A stretch of DNA of 64,000 bases from a virus: positions 1 through 64,000 of the IMG/VR virus record IMGVR_UViG_3300021963_000051, one strand, 5' to 3'. The notes beneath the pieces are model-generated. The model searched no databases, was not told the DNA's origin, and was given only the letters and a program-made list of their open reading frames with translations. Numbering within the stretch: position 1 is the first letter of the stretch; every line of letters begins with the position of its first letter. Position numbers and translations under genes: made by a program. Shown here in pieces: positions 34,959 through 51,225 of the stretch.

Positions 34959-36735
34959 AATTCAATCATTAACAGTGAAGAATTTTATGAGTGTGGGCAA
35001 TCAAACTCAAGCCGTTGATTTTGATCAAGAGCAGTTGACCCTGGTGTTAGGATCTAATCTTGACCTGGGTGGCGATGACACAGGTTCCAGAAATGGCACA
35101 GGCAAGACCACAATAATCAACGCCTTGAGTTATGGCCTATATGGTCAGGCATTGACCAACATTAAAAAAGAAAATCTAATCAACAAGATCAATAATAAAC
35201 ATATGTTGGTCACAGTTGAATTTGAAAAGAACAATCTAAATTATCGCATCGAACGTGGTCGTAAACCCAACATTCTCAAATTATTTGTCAACAATCAAGA
35301 AATTACCGCAGACAATCAAGGAGACGATGAAAGCCAAGGTGACAGCAGAGAAACACAAAAGTCAATTGAACAAATGTTAGAAATGAGTCATACCATGTTC
35401 AAACACCTTGTGGCTCTCAATACCTATACCGAACCTTTCTTGGCCATGCGGGCTGCTGATCAACGTGAAGTTATTGAACAACTGTTAGGCATAACCCTAT
35501 TGTCAGCAAAGGCAGAAGAATTAAAAAATCGTATAAAAGAAAACAAAGATTTAATTGCCAGAGAAAATTTTAGAATTGAAGGTATCAAATCAGCCAACGA
35601 AAATGTTCAGAAGAGTATAGAAAGTCTAAAACTAAAAAGTTCGGCGTGGTTCAATAAACATGACCAAGAATTAGAATCATTAGGTCGTGCCATTGTTAAT
35701 CTTGAAGCAGTAGATATTGAAGCGGAGATACAGGCGCATACAGCCTTAAAAACGTGGTCGGACAATGATAAAAAATTAACCGGCTTAAGAAAACAAAAGG
35801 CAACTTTGGAAACTGCTGTCATGCAGGCAGAAAAGACTGTGAAAAAATACACAGCAGAAGTAGAAAAATTAAAAGATCATAAATGCCATGCTTGCGATCA
35901 AAAACTTCAAGATCATAAACATAAAGAAATGTTAGATGATGCTATCAAGCATAAGATAGAAGCAGATGAATATGCTTTAAAAGTAGTCAATGACTACGGA
36001 CTTGTTGTCAATGACATTGAAAAAATCGGCAACCAAGGAGCAAAGCCTACTACATTTTACGAAACTGAAGCAGAAGCATTAGGTCATAAAAACAATTTAG
36101 GCAACTTAGAAAAGGCACTGATACAAAAATCAGAAGAATCCAATCCCTATGAAGAACAAATTGATGAACTAAAAAATTCTGCCATACAAGAAATAGACTG
36201 GACAGTAATAAACGAATTGACCAAGTTGCGTGATCATCAGGACTTTCTTTTGAAATTGTTGACAAATAAAGATAGTTTCATACGAAAGCGTATTATCGAT
36301 CAAAATCTTTCATATCTTAATAAAAGGTTAAGTTATTATATTGACAAATTAGGATTACCGCATCGTGTGGTGTTTCAAAATGATCTCACAGTGGAAATAA
36401 CTCAACTGGGACAGGATTTAGACTTTGATAATCTCAGCAGGGGTGAACGTAATAGATTAATTTTGAGTATGAGTTTTGCCTTTAGAGACGTATGGGAAGG
36501 ACTATACCAACCTATCAACTTATTATTCATTGATGAACTTGTCGATTCGGGCATGGATTCAGCTGGTGTAGAAAGTGCTTTGGCAGTATTGAAAAAAATG
36601 GGCAGGGAACGTAATAAGAATATATACCTTATCAGTCACAAAGATGAGCTACAGGGCAGAGTAAACAACGTACTAAGAGTAGTAAAAGAAAATGGATTTA
36701 CTAGTTACTCAAACAGTTTAGAATATGTCAACTGA
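34948..36735 (+). CDS. gp46: Recombination ATPase subunit (Rad50/SbcC-like)
   Basis: KNFMS, Walker A NGTGKTT, coiled coil with CHAC zinc hook, LSRGE signature, LFIDE Walker B, ISH. Confidence 0.95.
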   Translation: MTFKIQSLTVKNFMSVGNQTQAVDFDQEQLTLVLGSNLDLGGDDTGSRNGTGKTTIINALSYGLYGQALTNIKKENLINKINNKHMLVTVEFEKNNLNYRIERGRKPNILKLFVNNQEITADNQGDDESQGDSRETQKSIEQMLEMSHTMFKHLVALNTYTEPFLAMRAADQREVIEQLLGITLLSAKAEELKNRIKENKDLIARENFRIEGIKSANENVQKSIESLKLKSSAWFNKHDQELESLGRAIVNLEAVDIEAEIQAHTALKTWSDNDKKLTGLRKQKATLETAVMQAEKTVKKYTAEVEKLKDHKCHACDQKLQDHKHKEMLDDAIKHKIEADEYALKVVNDYGLVVNDIEKIGNQGAKPTTFYETEAEALGHKNNLGNLEKALIQKSEESNPYEEQIDELKNSAIQEIDWTVINELTKLRDHQDFLLKLLTNKDSFIRKRIIDQNLSYLNKRLSYYIDKLGLPHRVVFQNDLTVEITQLGQDLDFDNLSRGERNRLILSMSFAFRDVWEGLYQPINLLFIDELVDSGMDSAGVESALAVLKKMGRERNKNIYLISHKDELQGRVNNVLRVVKENGFTSYSNSLEYVN

Positions 36736-37063
36736 AAAAATAGACGAATATAGAAGACTTTACTCAGAATACATCAGCCTAAGTGTAGATTTACATAACT
36801 ACCATTTAAGTTTTCTAAAATACAAAGGAGGAGAGACAGGAAGATCTTGTAAACGTACAATTAAAAAAATGAGGAAAATATTGTACTACATGGATAAAAT
36901 AAACTTTTTTGTTAGACGAGAACATTTAGATAATTGGAAAGCAGAAGTGGAAAGTAGAAAAACCATACAACCAGATGGTACAATTAAAGTAAAAAGAAAA
37001 ACACCCTACAAGAGAAAAGCAAAAAATGGAAACAACAACAACACAGCTACAAAAATTGTTTGA
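36725..37063 (+). CDS. Basic hypothetical protein, possibly a divergent Hc1-like paralogue
   Basis: 112 aa, Lys/Arg rich, overlaps both neighbours; helix-G-x-x-G-R-x-x-K-R pattern resembles the next gene. Confidence 0.6.
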   Translation: MSTEKIDEYRRLYSEYISLSVDLHNYHLSFLKYKGGETGRSCKRTIKKMRKILYYMDKINFFVRREHLDNWKAEVESRKTIQPDGTIKVKRKTPYKRKAKNGNNNNTATKIV

Positions 37064-37223
37064 AGAATTTATAAAAGAAGATACTAAATTTACCAGCGGC
37101 AATGCAGCAGCAGGAACTCGTGCTCGTAAAGCTCTAGCAGAAATTTCTAAAACCGCCAAGGCTAGACGCAACGAAATTACAGAAGAAAAAAATGCTCGTA
37201 AGGAAGCTAAGGCAACCAAATGA
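37026..37223 (+). CDS. Histone H1-like protein, Hc1 family
   Basis: KFTSGNAAAGTRARKALAEISKTAKARRNEI matches the Hc1-family GNxAAGTRARK motif. Confidence 0.8.
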   Translation: METTTTQLQKLFEEFIKEDTKFTSGNAAAGTRARKALAEISKTAKARRNEITEEKNARKEAKATK

Positions 37224-37945
37224 TTGAAAATAAATTCAACGACTTATGTTGCAAAGTATGCGGTGGAAACACTAAAGTTTATGGTATAGTAGACTTCAAC
37301 AAAAGTTGCGAGGAATTGAATGGTAAATTTTTACCTTACTCAGGGCAAGCTGTTTATTATCATCAATGTACCAACTGCCAATTTATTTTCACAACAGACT
37401 TTGACAATTGGACATTGACAGATTTCTCAGATAAAATCTACAACGATGATTATGAATTAGTTGATCCCGAATATTGGGAAACTAGACCTAAAAATCTAGC
37501 TAAATGGATTCAACCCTTACTTAACGGTAACAAAGAACTAAACATTTTTGATTATGGTGCAGGAACCGCGGTGTTTGGTGATGAATTAGAAGATCAGGGA
37601 TATACAGTTGATTCTTGGGATCCATTATGGGAAGACCCGTTAGACGAAAGTAAAAAAAATTCTTATGATGTTGTTACAGCATTTGAAGTCTTAGAACATA
37701 GTCCTACTCCTTTTGAAACAGCTAAGGAAATAGCTGATTTCAGTAAAAAAGGAGAAGGACAATTAGTTATTATGACTTTAGCTAATGATATCATTAGAGG
37801 TGAAGGGGTAAACTATTGGTATTTGGCTCCAAGAAATGGACACGTTTGTATGCATAGTAATAAAAGTATAGAAATTTTATTCGACAAATTAGGAATGTAT
37901 GTTCAACATCTAGCTCCAAATACTCATATAGTTTCATGGAAATAG
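37220..37945 (+). CDS. Class I SAM-dependent methyltransferase with an N-terminal zinc ribbon
   Basis: CKVCGG...CTNC, IFDYGAGTA (motif I), YDVVTAFEVLEH, WYLAPRNGHV. Confidence 0.85.
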   Translation: MIENKFNDLCCKVCGGNTKVYGIVDFNKSCEELNGKFLPYSGQAVYYHQCTNCQFIFTTDFDNWTLTDFSDKIYNDDYELVDPEYWETRPKNLAKWIQPLLNGNKELNIFDYGAGTAVFGDELEDQGYTVDSWDPLWEDPLDESKKNSYDVVTAFEVLEHSPTPFETAKEIADFSKKGEGQLVIMTLANDIIRGEGVNYWYLAPRNGHVCMHSNKSIEILFDKLGMYVQHLAPNTHIVSWK

Positions 37946-38380
37946 ATGTCATGGTATTATAAAAATGAAATAATAACCGAATTACCTGACACCACTGTAG
38001 GATTTGTATATATTATAACAAATAAAATTACAGGCAAAAAGTACATAGGCAAAAAATTATCTAAATTTAGCAAAACCACATACAAAACAATAAAATTAAA
38101 AAACGGCACAAAGAAAAAGAAACGAATCAAATCAAAAATAGACTCAGACTGGCAGACATATTACGGCTCAAACGATCAACTTTCAAAAGATGTAGCACAA
38201 TTAGGCACAGACAAATTTCATAGAGAAATATTATATTATTGTAAATCAAAAGCAGAATGTTCATACATTGAGGCACGAGAACAATTCACAAGAAAAGTAT
38301 TAGAATCAGACGAATATTACAACGGACAGATTTCTGTTCGTGTCCATGGCTCCCATATTAAAGGCAAATTACTCGGTTAA
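37946..38380 (+). CDS. GIY-YIG endonuclease (stand-alone catalytic domain)
   Basis: GFVYIITNKITGKKYIGKK...YYGS...FHREIL...E...YYN, with a Lys-rich insertion. Confidence 0.9.
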   Translation: MSWYYKNEIITELPDTTVGFVYIITNKITGKKYIGKKLSKFSKTTYKTIKLKNGTKKKKRIKSKIDSDWQTYYGSNDQLSKDVAQLGTDKFHREILYYCKSKAECSYIEAREQFTRKVLESDEYYNGQISVRVHGSHIKGKLLG

Positions 38381-38793
38381 AGGCTAGCGCAGGCTAAATT
38401 CATGCGCCCTAGACCTGGACTTCGTGTCGCAGGGATGGATCGCTCACCGCCGAAGTGAGAACTCAACCACTACCCTACCCGGATGAAGATCACTAATCGC
38501 CGTGATTTGGTTGTTTGAATAGGTTAAACCCAAGGCAAAAAGACGCTCTTAATAGAGCACGTTTTACAAGTATGATAGCGTATACGTGTAAAGCCGCCGT
38601 TGTATGAAGACTGGGATGGAGGTACCGGACAACCGCCTCTGCTAAACACCCTAACGCTGTGTGACTATGCTACTCAGATGATGCCAAACTTCGCCCGCCC
38701 TGGGCGAAGTGTGACCACTTAATCTAGATGATACTAAAAGACAAAAACGCTTCGAGTCTCGTAGACGAAGAAGCGAACGAACGCAGTTCGTTC
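38381..38793 (+). ncRNA. Candidate large structured non-coding RNA (alternatively a structured DNA element)
   Basis: GC-rich island in AT-rich DNA with at least 10 helices found by eye, e.g. GCGCA/TGCGC, CCTG-GAC/GTC-CAGG, CTCAC/GTGAG, CAACCA/TGGTTG, GCTCT/AGAGC, TTTACA/TGTAAA, ACTTCGCCC/GGGCGAAGT, GAACGAAC/GTTCGTTC. No credible ORF. Strand is inferred from the operon. Confidence 0.7.
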
Positions 38794-38820
38794 ATAAATA
38801 TTAAAATATCAATACAAAAA

Positions 38821-40233
38821 ATGAAATTATCAAATATTATTATAGAACAACATTTAAAAGATGGATTAATTCTATTAGAGTCTGTATGTCAAAATCTGAC
38901 TGAGGAACAATCTAGGATTATTAAGGGAATTTATAATGAATTTAAACCTTTAATAGAAGCAAGTTTAAGCCAAGATCAGATACTACAAGTATTCACAGGT
39001 GTTGAACAACAGGCAACAGGATCGGGTAATAATAGGACACTGATAGGTAAAGGGGTTGATCTTAAAAATCAAGTAAACGATATAATCAATAAAACAGGGC
39101 AATGGCTTCAAAATACCGCTCCGGTACAGTTCGCTGATCAGAAGTTTGAAGAACTTAAAACAAAAGTTGCTGCTAAGTTCCCTAACTTAGATCGTCAACT
39201 TACTGATCTTGGTACCTGGATGAAAGACAATCCAGGTAAAAGTGCTGCTATCATTGGCGTATTAACTGCTATTGCTTCATTGGCGGGTGGACCTGCAGGT
39301 GGTGCTATAGCTGGACAGGCTCTTAGGGGTGCTGCTGAACTTATAAAAGGTGAAAAACTTTCAACTGCTGTTGGAAAGGGTATTAAAACTGCGGCATTAG
39401 GTTATCTTTCAGGTAAAGCATTTCAGATGCTTGGCGACTGGGTAGGTAGTTTTAGAGAACAATCAATACCATTTGGTCCGGAAAATACTGGCCTTGAAAA
39501 AGTTAGTTGGGGTGCTCGCAGTTCGATTACAGGTCCTGGAATGGAATGGACAAGGACTACACAGGGATTTAACGCATTAGTTCGTCCTCAAGAAGCAGAA
39601 GTCATTAGAACAGCAATGGCAGGAATCAAAGCAGGAGAACCTGGTGCATTTGATACATTGTATAAGGTAGCAAGAGAAGTAAACTCAAAAGAATATAAGC
39701 AGGCCTTAAATGGTGTAGTTCAAGGAGCCTGGGAAGCAGCTAAGTCTAATGATAGTATACTTCAATTTATTAACGTTACAAAACAAGGATTGCAAGCAGG
39801 TGCGCAAGGTGCTGTTGCAGCGTCAACTGGCAGCAAATCTACTACAAAAACAGAAAGTTTAACTAAATCCACAATAAACAAATTATTTTATAATGTAGAT
39901 CGAGCCAATATGGTATTAGATGAAGGTATATTTGATAAGATTAAACAATTTGGTCAAAACTTAACCACTAAGATCACCGCAGATAAATTAAAAACAGCGT
40001 GGACTAAGGCAGGGTCTCCTACAGATAGCGATCAAGTTGCACATTTTTTAAAACAGGCCGGTGTAAATGACACTATAATTTCTAAGGTGTTTGGTGATAT
40101 GAATATTTCTTATTCGGGAAAAACAACACCTTCAACTAACAATCAAACGGTAAATACCAATGATATTGTAGTGAGAATACAAAAACTAACTCCTGCGCAA
40201 CAAAAAGAAATTTTAGCCTTACTAGGGAAATAA
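38821..40233 (+). CDS. Probable internal head (ejected) protein; start revised to 38821
   Basis: Late motif TAAATA at 38795-38800 precedes ATG 38821 (MKLSNII). LLES, LIEA and LDEG protease-type sites; Gly/Ala hydrophobic segment. Confidence 0.6.
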   Translation: MKLSNIIIEQHLKDGLILLESVCQNLTEEQSRIIKGIYNEFKPLIEASLSQDQILQVFTGVEQQATGSGNNRTLIGKGVDLKNQVNDIINKTGQWLQNTAPVQFADQKFEELKTKVAAKFPNLDRQLTDLGTWMKDNPGKSAAIIGVLTAIASLAGGPAGGAIAGQALRGAAELIKGEKLSTAVGKGIKTAALGYLSGKAFQMLGDWVGSFREQSIPFGPENTGLEKVSWGARSSITGPGMEWTRTTQGFNALVRPQEAEVIRTAMAGIKAGEPGAFDTLYKVAREVNSKEYKQALNGVVQGAWEAAKSNDSILQFINVTKQGLQAGAQGAVAASTGSKSTTKTESLTKSTINKLFYNVDRANMVLDEGIFDKIKQFGQNLTTKITADKLKTAWTKAGSPTDSDQVAHFLKQAGVNDTIISKVFGDMNISYSGKTTPSTNNQTVNTNDIVVRIQKLTPAQQKEILALLGK

Positions 40234-40234
40234 C

Positions 40235-41089
40235 ATGAGAATAACTGAAATATTAAGTGAAAATCAAATTGACGAAGGATTCAAAGACGCCCTAGCAAAA
40301 GGAGTAGGTGGAGTAGCACAAGGTATTGGAGCCACAGCAGGTGGATTGGCAGGGGCTTGGGGACGTATGAAACAAGGTTATCAGGCAGGAAAAGCAGCCG
40401 TAGCTAATCCCGATGCTTACTTTGCTCAGCAAGACCAGCAGCCTATTGCAGCGAATACTGCTACAAATGCTTCTTCAACAACACCACCTACAGGTTCTGC
40501 TACAACACCTCCAGCAGGCGCTCCGGCACCAACTCCTGCTACAACTACAGCTCCTGCTCCTCAAGCCACGCCTGACGAATTACAAGACCTTAAGAATATT
40601 ATTGGAAAATTAAATCCTGATCAAAAACAAGACATAGCAGCACAATTGACCAAACCTGAAATACAACAACCTTCAGAGCCTGCAGCTACACCAGCTCCTG
40701 CAGCTACACCAGCTCCTGCAGGTACAAGTGTAGACATAGGACAGGTTAAACAACAAAGTGCTCAAAAGGCACAGGCAGCACAGGCTGACAAACAAACAGC
40801 TCAACAACAAATTGCCGCGACTCAAGCAGCTAATGCAGCAAAAGCCAAACAAGATGCGGCTGTAAAAGCAGCAAAGGACACTGCTATGGCAAAACCAGGA
40901 TTCCAACAGACAGCAGCGGACAAGTTAGCCATACAAAAAGCACAGCAAATGGGCATCAGAGAAGCAGTTAAGGAAAGCAAACAACCTAAAAAACCTGCTC
41001 CTAAACAACCAGCCAAGAAACCTGTTCCAGGTAAGAAGAAAAAAATAGTTGTAGAATTTAACAGTAAATTTTTAGGACAAAAGATTTAG
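40235..41089 (+). CDS. Probable internal head protein, Ala/Pro/Gln rich
   Basis: N-terminal MRITEILSENQIDEG, IREA and VKES sites; low complexity; 18-bp tandem repeat (PAATPA x2) at about 40679-40721. Confidence 0.6.
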   Translation: MRITEILSENQIDEGFKDALAKGVGGVAQGIGATAGGLAGAWGRMKQGYQAGKAAVANPDAYFAQQDQQPIAANTATNASSTTPPTGSATTPPAGAPAPTPATTTAPAPQATPDELQDLKNIIGKLNPDQKQDIAAQLTKPEIQQPSEPAATPAPAATPAPAGTSVDIGQVKQQSAQKAQAAQADKQTAQQQIAATQAANAAKAKQDAAVKAAKDTAMAKPGFQQTAADKLAIQKAQQMGIREAVKESKQPKKPAPKQPAKKPVPGKKKKIVVEFNSKFLGQKI

Positions 41090-50727: not shown

Positions 50728-50799
50728 TAAATATAAAGTCTTTATGATTTATGCGGCACCCACCGCGTAGGGCATAGAACGCTCAATAAGGAGAAACAA
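50728..50799 (+). promoter_or_regulatory. Late promoter plus structured 5' leader of the 141-aa gene
   Basis: TAAATA at 50728-50733; nested stems TTTATG/CATAGA and TTATGCGG-caccca-CCGCGTAG; AAGGAG SD. Confidence 0.6.
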
Positions 50800-51225
50800 A
50801 TGGGACGTCCATTAAAGAAAAAATTTTTTAGCGCAAATGCTAATAATAACATTAAAGTACAATTTCATAACGGTACTTCAAGCGTAGCTGGTTACATTGT
50901 TCACCAAGTAGGTGCTCGTAGATTTCAGTGTAGTGACGGAACAAATCGAAGAGTATGTAAATTAGTGAACAAAGCCTCTGCAGCTATTGCGGCTGGGGAA
51001 ATGACCATTACAGTGAAACAAGATGATGGTACTATAGATCAAGTTCTTAAAATTTCAGGAAGAATGCTAACAACCTTAAATGCTGGTGGCAATACGATTC
51101 GTAGACCTTGGAATTTCAGTACTTCAACTAGTGACAGTTATGTGCAAGTTGAAGAAGCTGGTACTTCGACTAGCGCAGTTACAACAGCAACTGGTGCAAC
51201 CAACCTTGAAGGTGATGCTCAGTAA
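50800..51225 (+). CDS. Putative capsid-associated (decoration) protein
   Basis: MGRPLKKKFF start, YIVHQVGARRF...VCKLV; own late promoter, strong SD and terminator, directly after the capsid gene. Confidence 0.6.
   Translation: MGRPLKKKFFSANANNNIKVQFHNGTSSVAGYIVHQVGARRFQCSDGTNRRVCKLVNKASAAIAAGEMTITVKQDDGTIDQVLKISGRMLTTLNAGGNTIRRPWNFSTSTSDSYVQVEEAGTSTSAVTTATGATNLEGDAQ

What the first reader, a model, noticed from the sequence alone, without database searches (positions are those of the whole stretch)
37946..38793. GIY-YIG nuclease gene followed immediately by a ~410-nt densely structured ncRNA candidate
Seen: starting at the nuclease stop codon (38380), the sequence switches from AT-rich to roughly half G+C and is filled with nested helices. 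These include GCGCA 38387-91/TGCGC 38403-07; CCTG-GAC/GTC-G-CAGG 38414-33; CTCAC 38443-47/GTGAG 38455-59; CAACCA 38464-69/TGGTTG 38508-13 enclosing ATCAC/GTGAT; GCTCT/AGAGC 38545-58; TTTACA 38563-68/TGTAAA 38587-92; GAGG..CGG/CCG.CCTC 38619-39; and a 9-bp stem at 38688-38710. A loop AGCGT (38577-81) can pair with ACGCT (38654-58), a possible pseudoknot. It is the only long gap in a gene-dense window and lacks tRNA, tmRNA, RNase P and group I/II hallmarks. Established: nuclease-plus-large-RNA pairs exist (HEARO with HNH, omegaRNA with IscB/TnpB). This GIY-YIG has no separate DNA-recognition domain but has a very basic insertion (KTIKLKNGTKKKKRIKSK). Inference: a possibly undescribed phage ribonucleoprotein in which the RNA binds, regulates or guides the nuclease. 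A ribozyme or replication origin is the alternative.
Basis: partly seen in the sequence, partly recalled or inferred. Interest (0 to 1): 0.88.

Follow-up and report, generated by a model that had tools for sequence, protein, structure and literature searches.

The report
Full-length Polynucleobacter-1 twin-word phage RNA
The gap behind a small nuclease gene of this uncultured freshwater giant phage encodes a real, doubly knotted RNA of about 415 bases; only its first third is catalogued (as an orphan motif), its function is still unknown, and it carries one 7-letter word twice that changes fast but always in both places.

Summary
Window 38382-38793 (+) is a conserved structured RNA. Its first 135 nt are Rfam RF01718, Polynucleobacter-1 (105.7 bits), an orphan motif from 2010. 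The other ~280 nt are uncatalogued but conserved in about 160 phage contigs. A 17-helix fold with two pseudoknots is 92% paired, against ~40% in shifted controls.

This scan has already reported the same RNA on at least seven other genomes. I re-tested those claims here.

The RNA-guided-nuclease reading is not supported:
- The GIY-YIG family occurs in 507 phage records, and four complete genomes have it without the RNA.
- Nine phage loci have the RNA without it.
- Polynucleobacter chromosomes carry the RNA next to DUF6641 and integrase genes.
- No nuclease residue tracks the RNA's variable word.

The linkage is still strong. The GIY-YIG gene abuts the RNA in 125 of 144 loci. Where it is missing, an unrelated ~170-aa PD-(D/E)XK nuclease usually takes the same place, in an either/or pattern.

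What I add: a second RNA type with a different 5' half, and the twin 7-nt word. The word is identical in 118 of 121 unique phage RNAs and comes in 13 variants. Further variants occur in bacteria, where 4 of 18 copies have mismatched twins. No complementary partner was found.

Best reading: a stand-alone trans-acting RNA. Its function is unknown.

The parts
37946..38380 (+). Small GIY-YIG nuclease gene (144 aa, nuclease domain only). It is the last protein gene of the gp47/gp46-like recombination gene row.
   Evidence: Pfam PF19835 SegE_GIY-YIG, 1.8e-31. phrog_447, 5.6e-36. Invariant FVY, YIG, R93-E94 and N126 in an alignment with RNA-less homologues.
38382..38516 (+). 5' domain of the RNA, which is the catalogued Polynucleobacter-1 motif (helices P1-P5).
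   Evidence: Rfam RF01718, 105.7 bits against a gathering score of 37, model positions 1-141 of 141. Helices 2-8.
38517..38793 (+). Uncatalogued 3' two-thirds of the same RNA.
   Evidence: blastn and nhmmer conservation over the whole length in ~160 phage contigs. Covariation in helices 9-17.
38575..38580 (+). Pseudoknot 1, 5' strand. It is the hairpin loop of P7 and pairs with 38655-38660.
   Evidence: 6 of 6 pairs have compensatory changes and 92.9% are paired. Mutual information.
38655..38660 (+). Pseudoknot 1, 3' strand.
38599..38602 (+). Pseudoknot 2, 5' strand (GUUG). It pairs with the loop CAAC at 38630-38633.
   Evidence: 100% paired. U-A in 32 sequences and C-G in 15 at 38601:38631.
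38619..38639 (+). Near-invariant hairpin GAGGUACCGGACAACCGCCUC. Its loop forms pseudoknot 2. It served as the search word for the second collection scan.
38613..38651 (+). Helix P9 (38613-15 with 38649-51), which encloses that hairpin.
   Evidence: 3 of 3 pairs compensatory, 100% paired.
38659..38682 (+). Module 1: GUGUGAC, then 10 nt ending in ACUC, then the 7-nt word AGAUGAU (38676-38682).
38689..38709 (+). 8-bp hairpin between the two modules. Its 5' strand (38689-92) can alternatively pair with 38606-38609.
   Evidence: 94.9% paired. The alternative pair 38606:38692 is 88% Watson-Crick with three pair types.
38709..38732 (+). Module 2: GUGUGAC, then 10 nt ending in AUCU, then the same 7-nt word AGAUGAU (38726-38732).
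   Evidence: The word is identical to that of module 1 in 118 of 121 unique phage RNAs, with 13 variants. Independent contrasts go the same way in 11 of 11 and 10 of 10 cases.
38749..38774 (+). Helix P12 (GCUUC/GAAGC) around a conserved GAGCG..AGCGAA-type internal motif. The motif is also kept in the bacterial copies.
   Evidence: (helix 16).
38775..38793 (+). Terminal hairpin GAACGAA/UUCGUUC, the likely 3' end of the RNA.
   Evidence: 7 of 7 pairs compensatory (helix 17). Conservation stops just after it.
38793..38800 (+). CATAAATA, one mismatch from the T4-type late promoter word TATAAATA. It lies ahead of the downstream gene, whose likely start is 38821.
   Evidence: Read from the sequence. 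The word is enriched after the RNA: an exact match in 6 of 71 loci against a 0.3% background, and at most one mismatch in 24 of 71 against 11%. Its role as a promoter is inferred.

Best explanation
This is the full-length form (about 412 nt, 38382-38793, + strand) of the Polynucleobacter-1 RNA. It is a stand-alone, multi-domain RNA with two pseudoknots. Freshwater T4-like giant phages carry it once per genome, and integrated mobile elements of Polynucleobacter carry it too.

In the phages it is the last element of the early gene row gp47-like, gp46-like, small proteins, small nuclease. It starts within a few bases of the nuclease stop codon and ends at its own hairpin. In a minority of relatives, and in the window with one mismatch, a late-promoter-like word follows. 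So it is most likely made on the nuclease operon's transcript and then acts on its own. This transcription model is inferred.

The conserved 3' half is the core of the family. It is a rigid scaffold that shows two single-stranded copies of one 7-nt word on two similar modules about 50 nt apart.

Because the word changes often but always in both copies, the most likely mechanism is that one sequence-matching reader must fit both copies. The RNA would then work in trans as an adaptor or decoy during infection, not as a guide of the neighbouring GIY-YIG nuclease.

The small nuclease in front of it (GIY-YIG, or PD-(D/E)XK in a minority) is best read as the last gene of the recombination module, or as a homing-type gene that rides next to a conserved RNA gene.

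Shown: the fold, its extent, the family and its contexts, and the identity rule of the twin word.
For: Fold and extent: RF01718 at 105.7 bits. Whole-length conservation in phage contigs. 92.3% paired, 57 of 91 pairs compensatory, both pseudoknots supported.

One copy in each of two complete genomes of 365 and 345 kb.

Independence from the nuclease:
- 507 phage records hold the nuclease family.
- Melnitz-3, S-SRM01, ACP17 and P-HM1 have the gene but no RF01718 hit and no large downstream gap.
- Nine phage loci hold the RNA without it. These include a 209-kb contig (60% complete) and a 303-kb contig (85% complete).
- 10 loci have 0.2-0.95 kb inserted between gene and RNA. One insert is a phrog_314 homing endonuclease.
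- 17 of 151 sampled genomes of the genus of G103 score above the family cut-off (18 at E<=0.01). The genus is taken to be Polynucleobacter because one hit coincides with the 2010 Polynucleobacter coordinate. There the RNA lies beside DUF6641, a 198-aa tyrosine recombinase and a clamp-loader-like ATPase, with no GIY-YIG gene.

The 3' half is the core: 26 loci match only the 3' half, have a different 5' half, and the 10 of them tested give no RF01718 hit.

Twin word:
- Identical in 118 of 121 unique phage RNAs, in 13 variants.
- At least 47 changes on the RNA tree.
- Phylogenetically independent pairs go the same way in 11 of 11 cases (p about 0.001) and 10 of 10 (p about 0.002).
- Bacterial copies carry further variants. 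These are AGCGAAA, AGAGAAA, GGAGAAA, AACAAAA and AUCAAAA, and they are again twinned.

End of the transcription unit: the upstream gene abuts the RNA whichever nuclease it is. The late-promoter word is enriched after the RNA.
Against: - The RNA's ends, abundance and timing are therefore unknown.
There is no complementary partner inside the RNA, in the flanks, or at any blastn-alignable site of six phage genomes. Only 90 of the ~300 occurrences lay in alignable DNA.
- The tight and ancient linkage to a small nuclease gene, including an either/or swap between two unrelated nuclease folds, leaves a functional tie to 'a nuclease' open.
- Four of 18 bacterial copies have 1-2 mismatches between the twins.
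- On the + strand, no intrinsic terminator and no sigma-70 promoter-like site closer than ~145 nt upstream was found.
Confidence: 0.5

Rival explanations
1. Ribonucleoprotein with the small nuclease. The RNA binds, regulates or guides whichever small nuclease is encoded just upstream, GIY-YIG or PD-(D/E)XK. The twin 7-nt words would act as the specificity element.
For: - Adjacency in 125 of 144 loci, kept across both 5'-domain types.
- Either/or replacement by an unrelated nuclease at the same spot.
- The nuclease is a bare catalytic domain with no other Pfam domain.
- In bacteria the RNA lies near a short tyrosine recombinase, another DNA-cutting enzyme.
Against: - The nuclease family is widespread without the RNA, including four complete genomes.
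- The bacterial copies have no nuclease neighbour of either family.
- Unrelated genes are inserted between gene and RNA in 10 loci.
- No GIY-YIG residue co-varies with word position 1: the highest mutual information is 0.15 of 0.99 bits.
- The basic stretch is not specific to RNA-linked members.
- No target complementary to the word was found.
- A guide does not need to be present twice in identical form.
Confidence: 0.15
2. Hitch-hiking. The nuclease genes are free-standing homing-type endonucleases, or simply the last gene of the recombination module. They persist next to the RNA gene because it is an extremely conserved sequence, which makes it a good cleavage target and landing place. The linkage is genetic, not functional. 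This explains the neighbourhood only, not what the RNA does.
For: - The Pfam family is SegE-like, and weaker PHROG and PADLOC hits are to homing endonucleases.
- The same family sits at other, unrelated places in cyanophages, Melnitz and ACP17.
- A phrog_314 homing endonuclease is inserted at the same junction in L037 and L053.
- Two unrelated nuclease folds occupy the same site in different phages.
- The RNA has long invariant stretches.
Against: - The 144-aa protein has no DNA-recognition domain such as homing enzymes usually carry.
- It is present in 94% of loci rather than sporadically.
- The PD-(D/E)XK family is annotated as resolvase-like, not as homing.
- Most other inserts at the junction are not recognisable endonucleases.
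Confidence: 0.2
3. Cis-acting end of the operon. The structure is a 3' untranslated element that stabilises, processes or terminates the early transcript and insulates it from the late genes.
For: - It starts at the stop codon of the upstream gene in nearly all loci.
- A terminal hairpin lies just before late-promoter-like words.
- No strong own promoter was found in the window.
Against: - About 412 nt with 17 helices, two pseudoknots and near-invariant single strands is far more than stabilisers or terminators need.
- The bacterial copies stand alone behind a 185-nt divergent intergenic region and must have their own promoter.
- Downstream genes and their strand vary.
- The twin-word rule has no place in this model.
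Confidence: 0.08
4. Self-processing or intramolecular explanation of the twin word. One version: the two words are the two sites of one cleavage, ligation or strand-switch event, which needs identical sequence at donor and acceptor. The other version: they pair with each other base-for-base in a parallel, like-with-like arrangement.
For: - Identity, not complementarity, is what is conserved, at every variable position and for words as different as AGAUGAU and AACAAAA.
- No complementary partner exists inside or near the RNA.
- The words are purine-rich and almost free of C.
- A conserved alternative helix nearby hints at conformational switching.
Against: - No known ribozyme family matches.
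- Spacing between the words varies from 50 to about 72 nt.
- No read data exist to show a shortened or circular product.
- Parallel like-with-like pairing is rare in natural RNAs (own knowledge).
Confidence: 0.07

Closest known systems
Polynucleobacter-1 RNA motif (Rfam RF01718; Weinberg et al. 2010, Genome Biol 11:R31, PMC2864571)
   Same: The first 135 nt match the model end to end at 105.7 bits. The habitat is the same: fresh water and Polynucleobacter. The 2010 supplement already noted the position downstream of one gene family (GOS11034, likened to PSSM2_218). The Polynucleobacter copy they list at about 2.1307 Mb was found again.
   Different: The catalogued motif is 141 positions. The RNA here is about 412 nt, and its more widely conserved part is the uncatalogued 3' half: two pseudoknots, twin modules, the GAGCG..AGCGAA motif and a terminal hairpin. 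Rfam files it as an sRNA of unknown function. The 2010 authors found it in no sequenced phage, whereas here it is in about 160 phage contigs.
Nuclease-associated guide RNAs: HEARO/omega RNA with IscB, omega RNA with TnpB (own knowledge; review PMC13565253 listed, not read)
   Same: A structured RNA of a few hundred nt lies directly next to a small nuclease gene of a mobile-element-rich genome.
   Different: Those RNAs and proteins are obligate partners and carry a guide that matches a DNA target. Here both the RNA and the nuclease occur without the other. The nuclease fold is GIY-YIG or PD-(D/E)XK. The variable element is a 7-nt word present twice, with no complementary target found.
Large orphan phage-borne RNAs such as GOLLD and ROOL (own knowledge; GOLLD is in the same 2010 paper)
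   Same: A large, intricately folded RNA of unknown function carried by phages and prophage-like elements, found by comparative genomics.
   Different: No sequence or model similarity: there is no Rfam hit other than RF01718 at E<=10. It is smaller, and it has the twin-word feature and the fixed place behind a nuclease gene.
Bridge RNAs of IS110 recombinases (own knowledge)
   Same: Two loops on one structured RNA must agree in a short core, and the RNA neighbours a DNA-breaking and rejoining enzyme. In the bacterial copies that enzyme is a tyrosine recombinase.
   Different: No IS110-type gene is present. The 10-nt stretches next to the words are conserved rather than programmable in the bacterial copies. 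The word was not found at element borders or elsewhere in a co-varying way. The phages that carry the RNA have no adjacent recombinase.

Membership tests
Rfam RF01718 Polynucleobacter-1 RNA | Covariance-model score at or above the curated gathering score (37 bits) over the whole model. | tested here: met
   105.7 bits, model positions 1-141 of 141, window 38382-38516 +.
Rfam RF01718 Polynucleobacter-1 RNA | The family's helices are kept through compensatory changes in relatives. | tested here: met
   Helices 2-8: 88-100% paired, with compensatory pairs in P1, P3, P4 and P5.
Rfam RF01718 Polynucleobacter-1 RNA | Lies downstream of the gene family noted by the authors (GOS11034, likened to PSSM2_218). 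| tested here: inconclusive
   The RNA lies behind one gene family in 125 of 144 loci. That family is common in cyanophages. I did not check directly that it equals GOS11034 or PSSM2_218.
GIY-YIG nuclease superfamily (Pfam PF19835 SegE_GIY-YIG) | Profile match above the curated cut-off. | tested here: met
   109.4 bits against a cut-off of 25, residues 3-129 on profile positions 1-123.
GIY-YIG nuclease superfamily (Pfam PF19835 SegE_GIY-YIG) | GIY and YIG motifs plus conserved Arg, Glu and Asn of the active site. | tested here: met
   F20-V21-Y22, Y33-I34-G35, R93-E94 and N126 are invariant in five distant members. Their catalytic role is inferred from the family.
Free-standing homing endonuclease (Seg type) | A DNA-recognition domain joined to the nuclease domain, and sporadic presence between close relatives. 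| tested here: not met
   No second Pfam domain in 144 aa. Present in 135 of 144 loci.
RNA-guided nuclease systems (omega RNA / HEARO type) | RNA and nuclease occur only together. | tested here: not met
   Nuclease without RNA. RNA without nuclease.
RNA-guided nuclease systems (omega RNA / HEARO type) | A variable guide segment with complementary targets. | tested here: inconclusive
   The variable 7-nt word exists, but no complementary co-varying site was found in the flanks or in six phage genomes. Host genomes of these phages were not searched for a complementary site.
Group I/II introns, RNase P RNA, tmRNA, other Rfam families | Match to the family model. | tested here: not met
   No Rfam match other than RF01718 at E<=10 in 38300-38900. 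ARAGORN found no tRNA or tmRNA. No split gene: the upstream gene ends at the nuclease start, and downstream genes differ between loci.
Box C/D or kink-turn modules (reading of a sister finding on this window) | Conserved G-A dinucleotides in both boxes that form tandem sheared pairs. | tested here: not met
   Word variants GAUAAU, and AACAAAA or AUCAAAA in bacterial copies, and box A variants without A (GUGUGGC), lack the required G-A steps.
Replication origin | A GC-skew switch or iterons bound at the DNA level. | tested here: not met
   Cumulative skew has its extremes at the contig ends, not at the RNA, in two complete genomes. Selection acts on RNA pairing, including G-U pairs.

The most novel reading that the evidence does not exclude
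The twin 7-nt word is a programmable specificity element. The RNA would be an adaptor that must match one short nucleic-acid sequence twice, for example the shared core of two DNA sites. It would hand that match to whichever DNA-cutting enzyme travels with it: GIY-YIG or PD-(D/E)XK nuclease in the phages, the short tyrosine recombinase in the Polynucleobacter elements. That would be a new class of RNA-directed DNA transaction, unrelated to CRISPR, OMEGA or bridge RNAs.
Probability: 0.06. Interest if true: 0.95.

Novelty: new variant of a known kind. Interest (0 to 1): 0.6.

Why it matters
Large, intricately folded bacterial and phage RNAs of unknown function are few. Each one solved so far has revealed new biochemistry.

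This RNA is catalogued only as a 141-position orphan motif. The data here show three things:
- The real unit is about three times longer.
- Its conserved core is the uncatalogued part.
- A second type with another 5' domain exists.

The RNA also obeys an unusual rule: one fast-changing 7-letter word must be the same at two places. Such an identity rule, rather than complementarity, points to a matching step with an unknown partner and gives a direct experimental handle.

The RNA is shared by giant lytic phages and by integrated elements of their probable host. That makes it a candidate player in phage-host or phage-satellite conflict in lakes.

The either/or swap of two unrelated small nucleases in front of it is a separate puzzle worth testing.

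Tried and rejected
- **Known RNA classes.** Rfam at E<=10 gave only RF01718. ARAGORN found nothing.
- **Isolated phages.** blastn against 50,697 phage records found no match.
- **Cis-regulator of the downstream gene.** Rejected: downstream genes and their strand differ between loci.
- **Internal partner for the word.** Mutual information over 121 RNAs found only the twin position. A per-sequence complement scan with controls was also negative. The U-rich stretch at 38510-16 can wobble-pair with the word but does not explain the identity rule.
- **Nearby antisense copy.** None within the flanks held for each locus (up to ~15 kb in all).
- **Phage-encoded partner.** In six genomes, two of them complete, the only alignable sites that track the word are the two words themselves. 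A first ungapped attempt failed its own positive control.
No co-varying residue.
- **Stop-codon or kink-turn readings of the word.** All 13 phage variants fit N-N-N-U-R-A-N, but the bacterial variants (AACAAAA, AGCGAAA) break the pattern.
- **Translational bypass of the T4 gene 60 kind.** This is a 50-nt gap with matched codons, a stop codon and a hairpin. Rejected: no ORF runs into module 1, spacing varies, and identity extends beyond a codon.
- **Promoter reading of the modules.** The spacer is 10 bp, too short.
- **Word at borders of the bacterial element or in its promoter region.** The antisense hits there are conserved sequences that do not follow the word.
- **Invertible or excisable segment around the bacterial RNA.** No convincing repeats.
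- **Junction as a homing hot spot.** Only one of five inserts tested is a recognisable endonuclease.
- **Genome contigs pattern scan.** 120 chance hits, none real; the scan was wasted.
Full report
**What is there.** The window is the first 64 kb of a 112-kb uncultured-virus record, estimated 30% complete. At 37946-38380 (+) lies a 144-aa ORF that is a GIY-YIG nuclease domain and nothing else: Pfam SegE_GIY-YIG, E 1.8e-31; phrog_447, 5.6e-36. From its stop codon to about 38800 there is no credible ORF. G+C rises from 0.26-0.35 to 0.48-0.49.

**RNA family and strand.** Rfam places 38382-38516 (+) in RF01718, Polynucleobacter-1, at 105.7 bits against a gathering score of 37, covering the whole 141-position model. 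Nothing else in 38300-38900 matches any of 4227 families at E<=10. No tRNA or tmRNA is present. The + strand folds better than shuffled sequence (z = -2.87); the - strand does not (z = -1.24).

**The RNA is three times longer than the catalogued motif.**
- A word from the 5' domain found 77 viral contigs, two of them chance hits.
- blastn showed that not 135 but about 350-430 nt are conserved at 68-80% in most of them. Conservation ends just after the hairpin at 38775-38793.
- A second scan used a word from the 3' part, GGTACCGG-NNN-ACCGCC. It brought in about 87 further true loci.
- Of these, 26 match only the 3' half of the profile. Their 5' half has about the same length but a different sequence. 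The 10 tested are not recognised by RF01718 at its gathering score.
- The uncatalogued 3' half is therefore the more widely conserved core, and at least two 5'-domain types exist.

**The fold.** I combined RNAalifold, a mutual-information scan and inspection into 17 helices, two of them pseudoknots. I counted them on 47 non-redundant sequences.
- 92.3% of cells are paired, against 37-45% with partners slid by 1-3 columns.
- 57 of 91 pairs have changes on both sides.
- The covariation score is 0.369 against 0.06-0.08, and 0 of 500 shuffles reach the observed values.
- Position 38692 is complementary both to 38706, its hairpin partner (97%), and to 38606 (88%, three pair types). A 4-bp alternative helix, GAAG/CUUC, may therefore form at some stage.

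**The twin word.** Two similar modules lie about 50 nt apart on either side of the 38689-38709 hairpin. Each is GUGUGAC, then 10 nt, then AGAUGAU. The 7-nt words are at 38676-82 and 38726-32.
- In 118 of 121 unique phage RNAs the two words are identical. They come in 13 variants: AGAUAAU 31, GGAUAAU 21, AGAUGAU 17, GGAUGAU 17, AGAUGAG 9, AGAUGAA 7, GGAUGAA 6, GCAUAAU 5, and five singletons.
- The flanks keep constant differences between the modules (ACUC against AUCU). Wholesale copy correction of the repeat is therefore unlikely.
- On a tree built without the word columns, the word changes at least 47 times. Phylogenetically independent pairs go the same way in 11 of 11 cases for position 1 and 10 of 10 for position 5.
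- Recombination between phages could inflate the count of changes. It cannot explain 13 matched variants.

**No partner found for the word.** I found no complementary partner in any of these places:
- Inside the RNA.
- In the flanks held for each locus.
- In the nuclease protein: the highest mutual information with word position 1 is 0.15 of 0.99 bits.
- At any blastn-alignable site of six phage genomes, two of them complete. There the only sites that follow the word are the two words themselves, which served as positive controls. Only 90 of the ~300 occurrences lay in alignable DNA.

**Is the RNA the nuclease's partner?**

For a link:
- Among 144 phage loci with at least 700 nt of upstream sequence, the GIY-YIG gene ends within about 70 nt of the RNA start in 125. 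It lies 0.2-0.95 kb upstream in 10 and is absent within 3 kb in 9.
- In 6 of those 9, a ~170-aa PD-(D/E)XK nuclease (Pfam PDDEXK_15, phrog_244) lies upstream, directly in 5 and with an RNase H gene between in L229.
- Contigs with that gene have no GIY-YIG homologue, including one of 303 kb that is 85% complete.
- Two complete GIY-YIG genomes have no PDDEXK_15 (positive control).
- Two unrelated small nucleases therefore replace each other in front of the RNA.

Against an obligate partnership:
- The GIY-YIG family is found in 507 isolated-phage records, mostly cyanophages.
- The complete genomes of Melnitz-3, S-SRM01, ACP17 and P-HM1 carry the gene at other places, with no gap behind it and no RF01718 match anywhere.
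- Other genes are inserted between nuclease and RNA. These include a phrog_314 homing endonuclease, a methyltransferase-like gene and unknowns.

**Bacterial copies.**
- In 17 of 151 sampled genomes of one genus the RNA scores above the family cut-off (18 at E<=0.01). I take the genus to be Polynucleobacter because one hit falls at the coordinate listed in 2010 for Polynucleobacter sp. QLW-P1DMWA-1. The RNA sits in the chromosome, sometimes twice.
- These copies keep the 5' domain, the two modules, the GAGCG..AGCGAA motif and the terminal hairpin.
- Their words are quite different from the phage words but again twinned: AGCGAAA, AGAGAAA, GGAGAAA, AACAAAA and AUCAAAA. Four of 18 copies have 1-2 mismatches.
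- Their neighbours are a divergent DUF6641 gene (18 of 18), a 198-aa tyrosine recombinase, a clamp-loader-like ATPase and a second integrase. This is an integrated mobile element, and there is no GIY-YIG gene.
- The word does not recur in a co-varying way at the element's borders or in its promoter region.

**What was known.**
- Weinberg et al. 2010 (PMC2864571) described the motif from fresh-water metagenomes and one Polynucleobacter genome.
- They remarked that its 3' half is not always detected and that most examples lie downstream of one gene family resembling a cyanophage gene.
- They also noted that no sequenced phage had it.
- This scan's earlier follow-ups on other genomes reached the same basic reading: a full-length RNA, a twin word, not the nuclease's guide, a solo copy, and host-chromosome copies. 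I repeated those tests independently here and agree.
- As far as those notes show, the following are added here: the second 5'-domain type, the either/or swap with a PD-(D/E)XK nuclease, the negative whole-genome search for a partner, the nuclease co-variation test, the alternative helix, and the count of word variants across phages and bacteria.

**How it most likely works.**
- In the phages the RNA closes the row gp47-like, gp46-like, small proteins, small nuclease. It abuts the last gene whichever nuclease that is.
- It ends at its own hairpin. The T4-type late promoter word TATAAATA is enriched just after it.
- No strong promoter or + strand terminator of its own was seen in the window.
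- I therefore infer that it is made at the 3' end of that early transcript and acts as a separate RNA.
- The bacterial copies, behind a 185-nt divergent spacer, must be transcribed on their own.
- The identity rule of the word is best explained by one reader that has to fit both copies. Because the word changes so often, a nucleic acid is a likelier reader than a protein.
- A like-with-like contact between the two words, or two equivalent processing sites, remain possible.

**Verdict.** The feature is real and its anatomy is now well defined. The function is unknown.

Noticed in passing
window 50731-50802 (+): A second catalogued orphan RNA motif, Rfam RF02980 freshwater-2, at 55.8 bits against a gathering score of 49.9. 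It sits just upstream of an AUG with a Shine-Dalgarno-like AAGGAG.
   Followed up: no
window 37026-37223 (+) and 36725-37063 (+): A 65-aa Hc1-type histone H1-like protein gene (Pfam PF07432, 4.6e-15) and a very basic 112-aa ORF lie between the gp46-like gene and the nuclease. Both recur in many related loci (clusters c4 and c6).
   Followed up: partly
window 37220-37945 (+): A 241-aa class I methyltransferase gene (Methyltransf_23, 2.5e-21) is inserted between the Hc1-like gene and the nuclease gene. It did not cluster with any ORF of the other 77 loci of the first scan. L230 has a different methyltransferase-like ORF between nuclease and RNA.
   Followed up: partly
L208, L309, L300, L239, L227, L232, L249, L220 and others (about 26 loci): A 'type B' form of the RNA. 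It has the same 3' half, twin word and place behind the GIY-YIG gene, but a different ~210-nt 5' half, which RF01718 did not recognise in the 10 loci tested.
   Followed up: partly
L047:3776-4291, L248:3963-4481, L316:8819-9382, L276:9348-9851, L240:3896-4423: A ~170-aa PDDEXK_15 nuclease gene takes the place of the GIY-YIG gene directly in front of the RNA. The two nuclease families were mutually exclusive in the genomes checked.
   Followed up: yes
L391 (G103:C1:1712801-1732800) and L410-L420: In the bacterial chromosomes (genus taken to be Polynucleobacter) the RNA lies in a conserved block: DUF6641 (divergent), the RNA, a 198-aa catalytic-domain-only tyrosine recombinase, and a clamp-loader-like AAA ATPase, with a second integrase nearby. 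This looks like an integrated satellite or prophage-like element. tRNA-Met or tRNA-Phe genes lie 4-9 kb away.
   Followed up: partly
L391 10273-10293 and 11077-11097: A 21-nt stretch inside the bacterial RNA recurs, 18 of 21 identical and in the same sense, inside the neighbouring tyrosine recombinase gene. By rough estimate this has about a 3% chance of arising by chance.
   Followed up: no
G005 (223-kb contig holding L048): This RNA-bearing phage contig has 51% G+C, against 36-44% in the other five genomes fetched. The RNA family therefore spans phages of very different base composition.
   Followed up: no
window 38821-40233 and 40235-41089 (+): The two genes after the RNA (470 aa and a 284-aa Ala/Pro/Gln-rich protein) have no Pfam or PHROG match. 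The 470-aa protein found no relatives in a viral-contig scan.
   Followed up: partly
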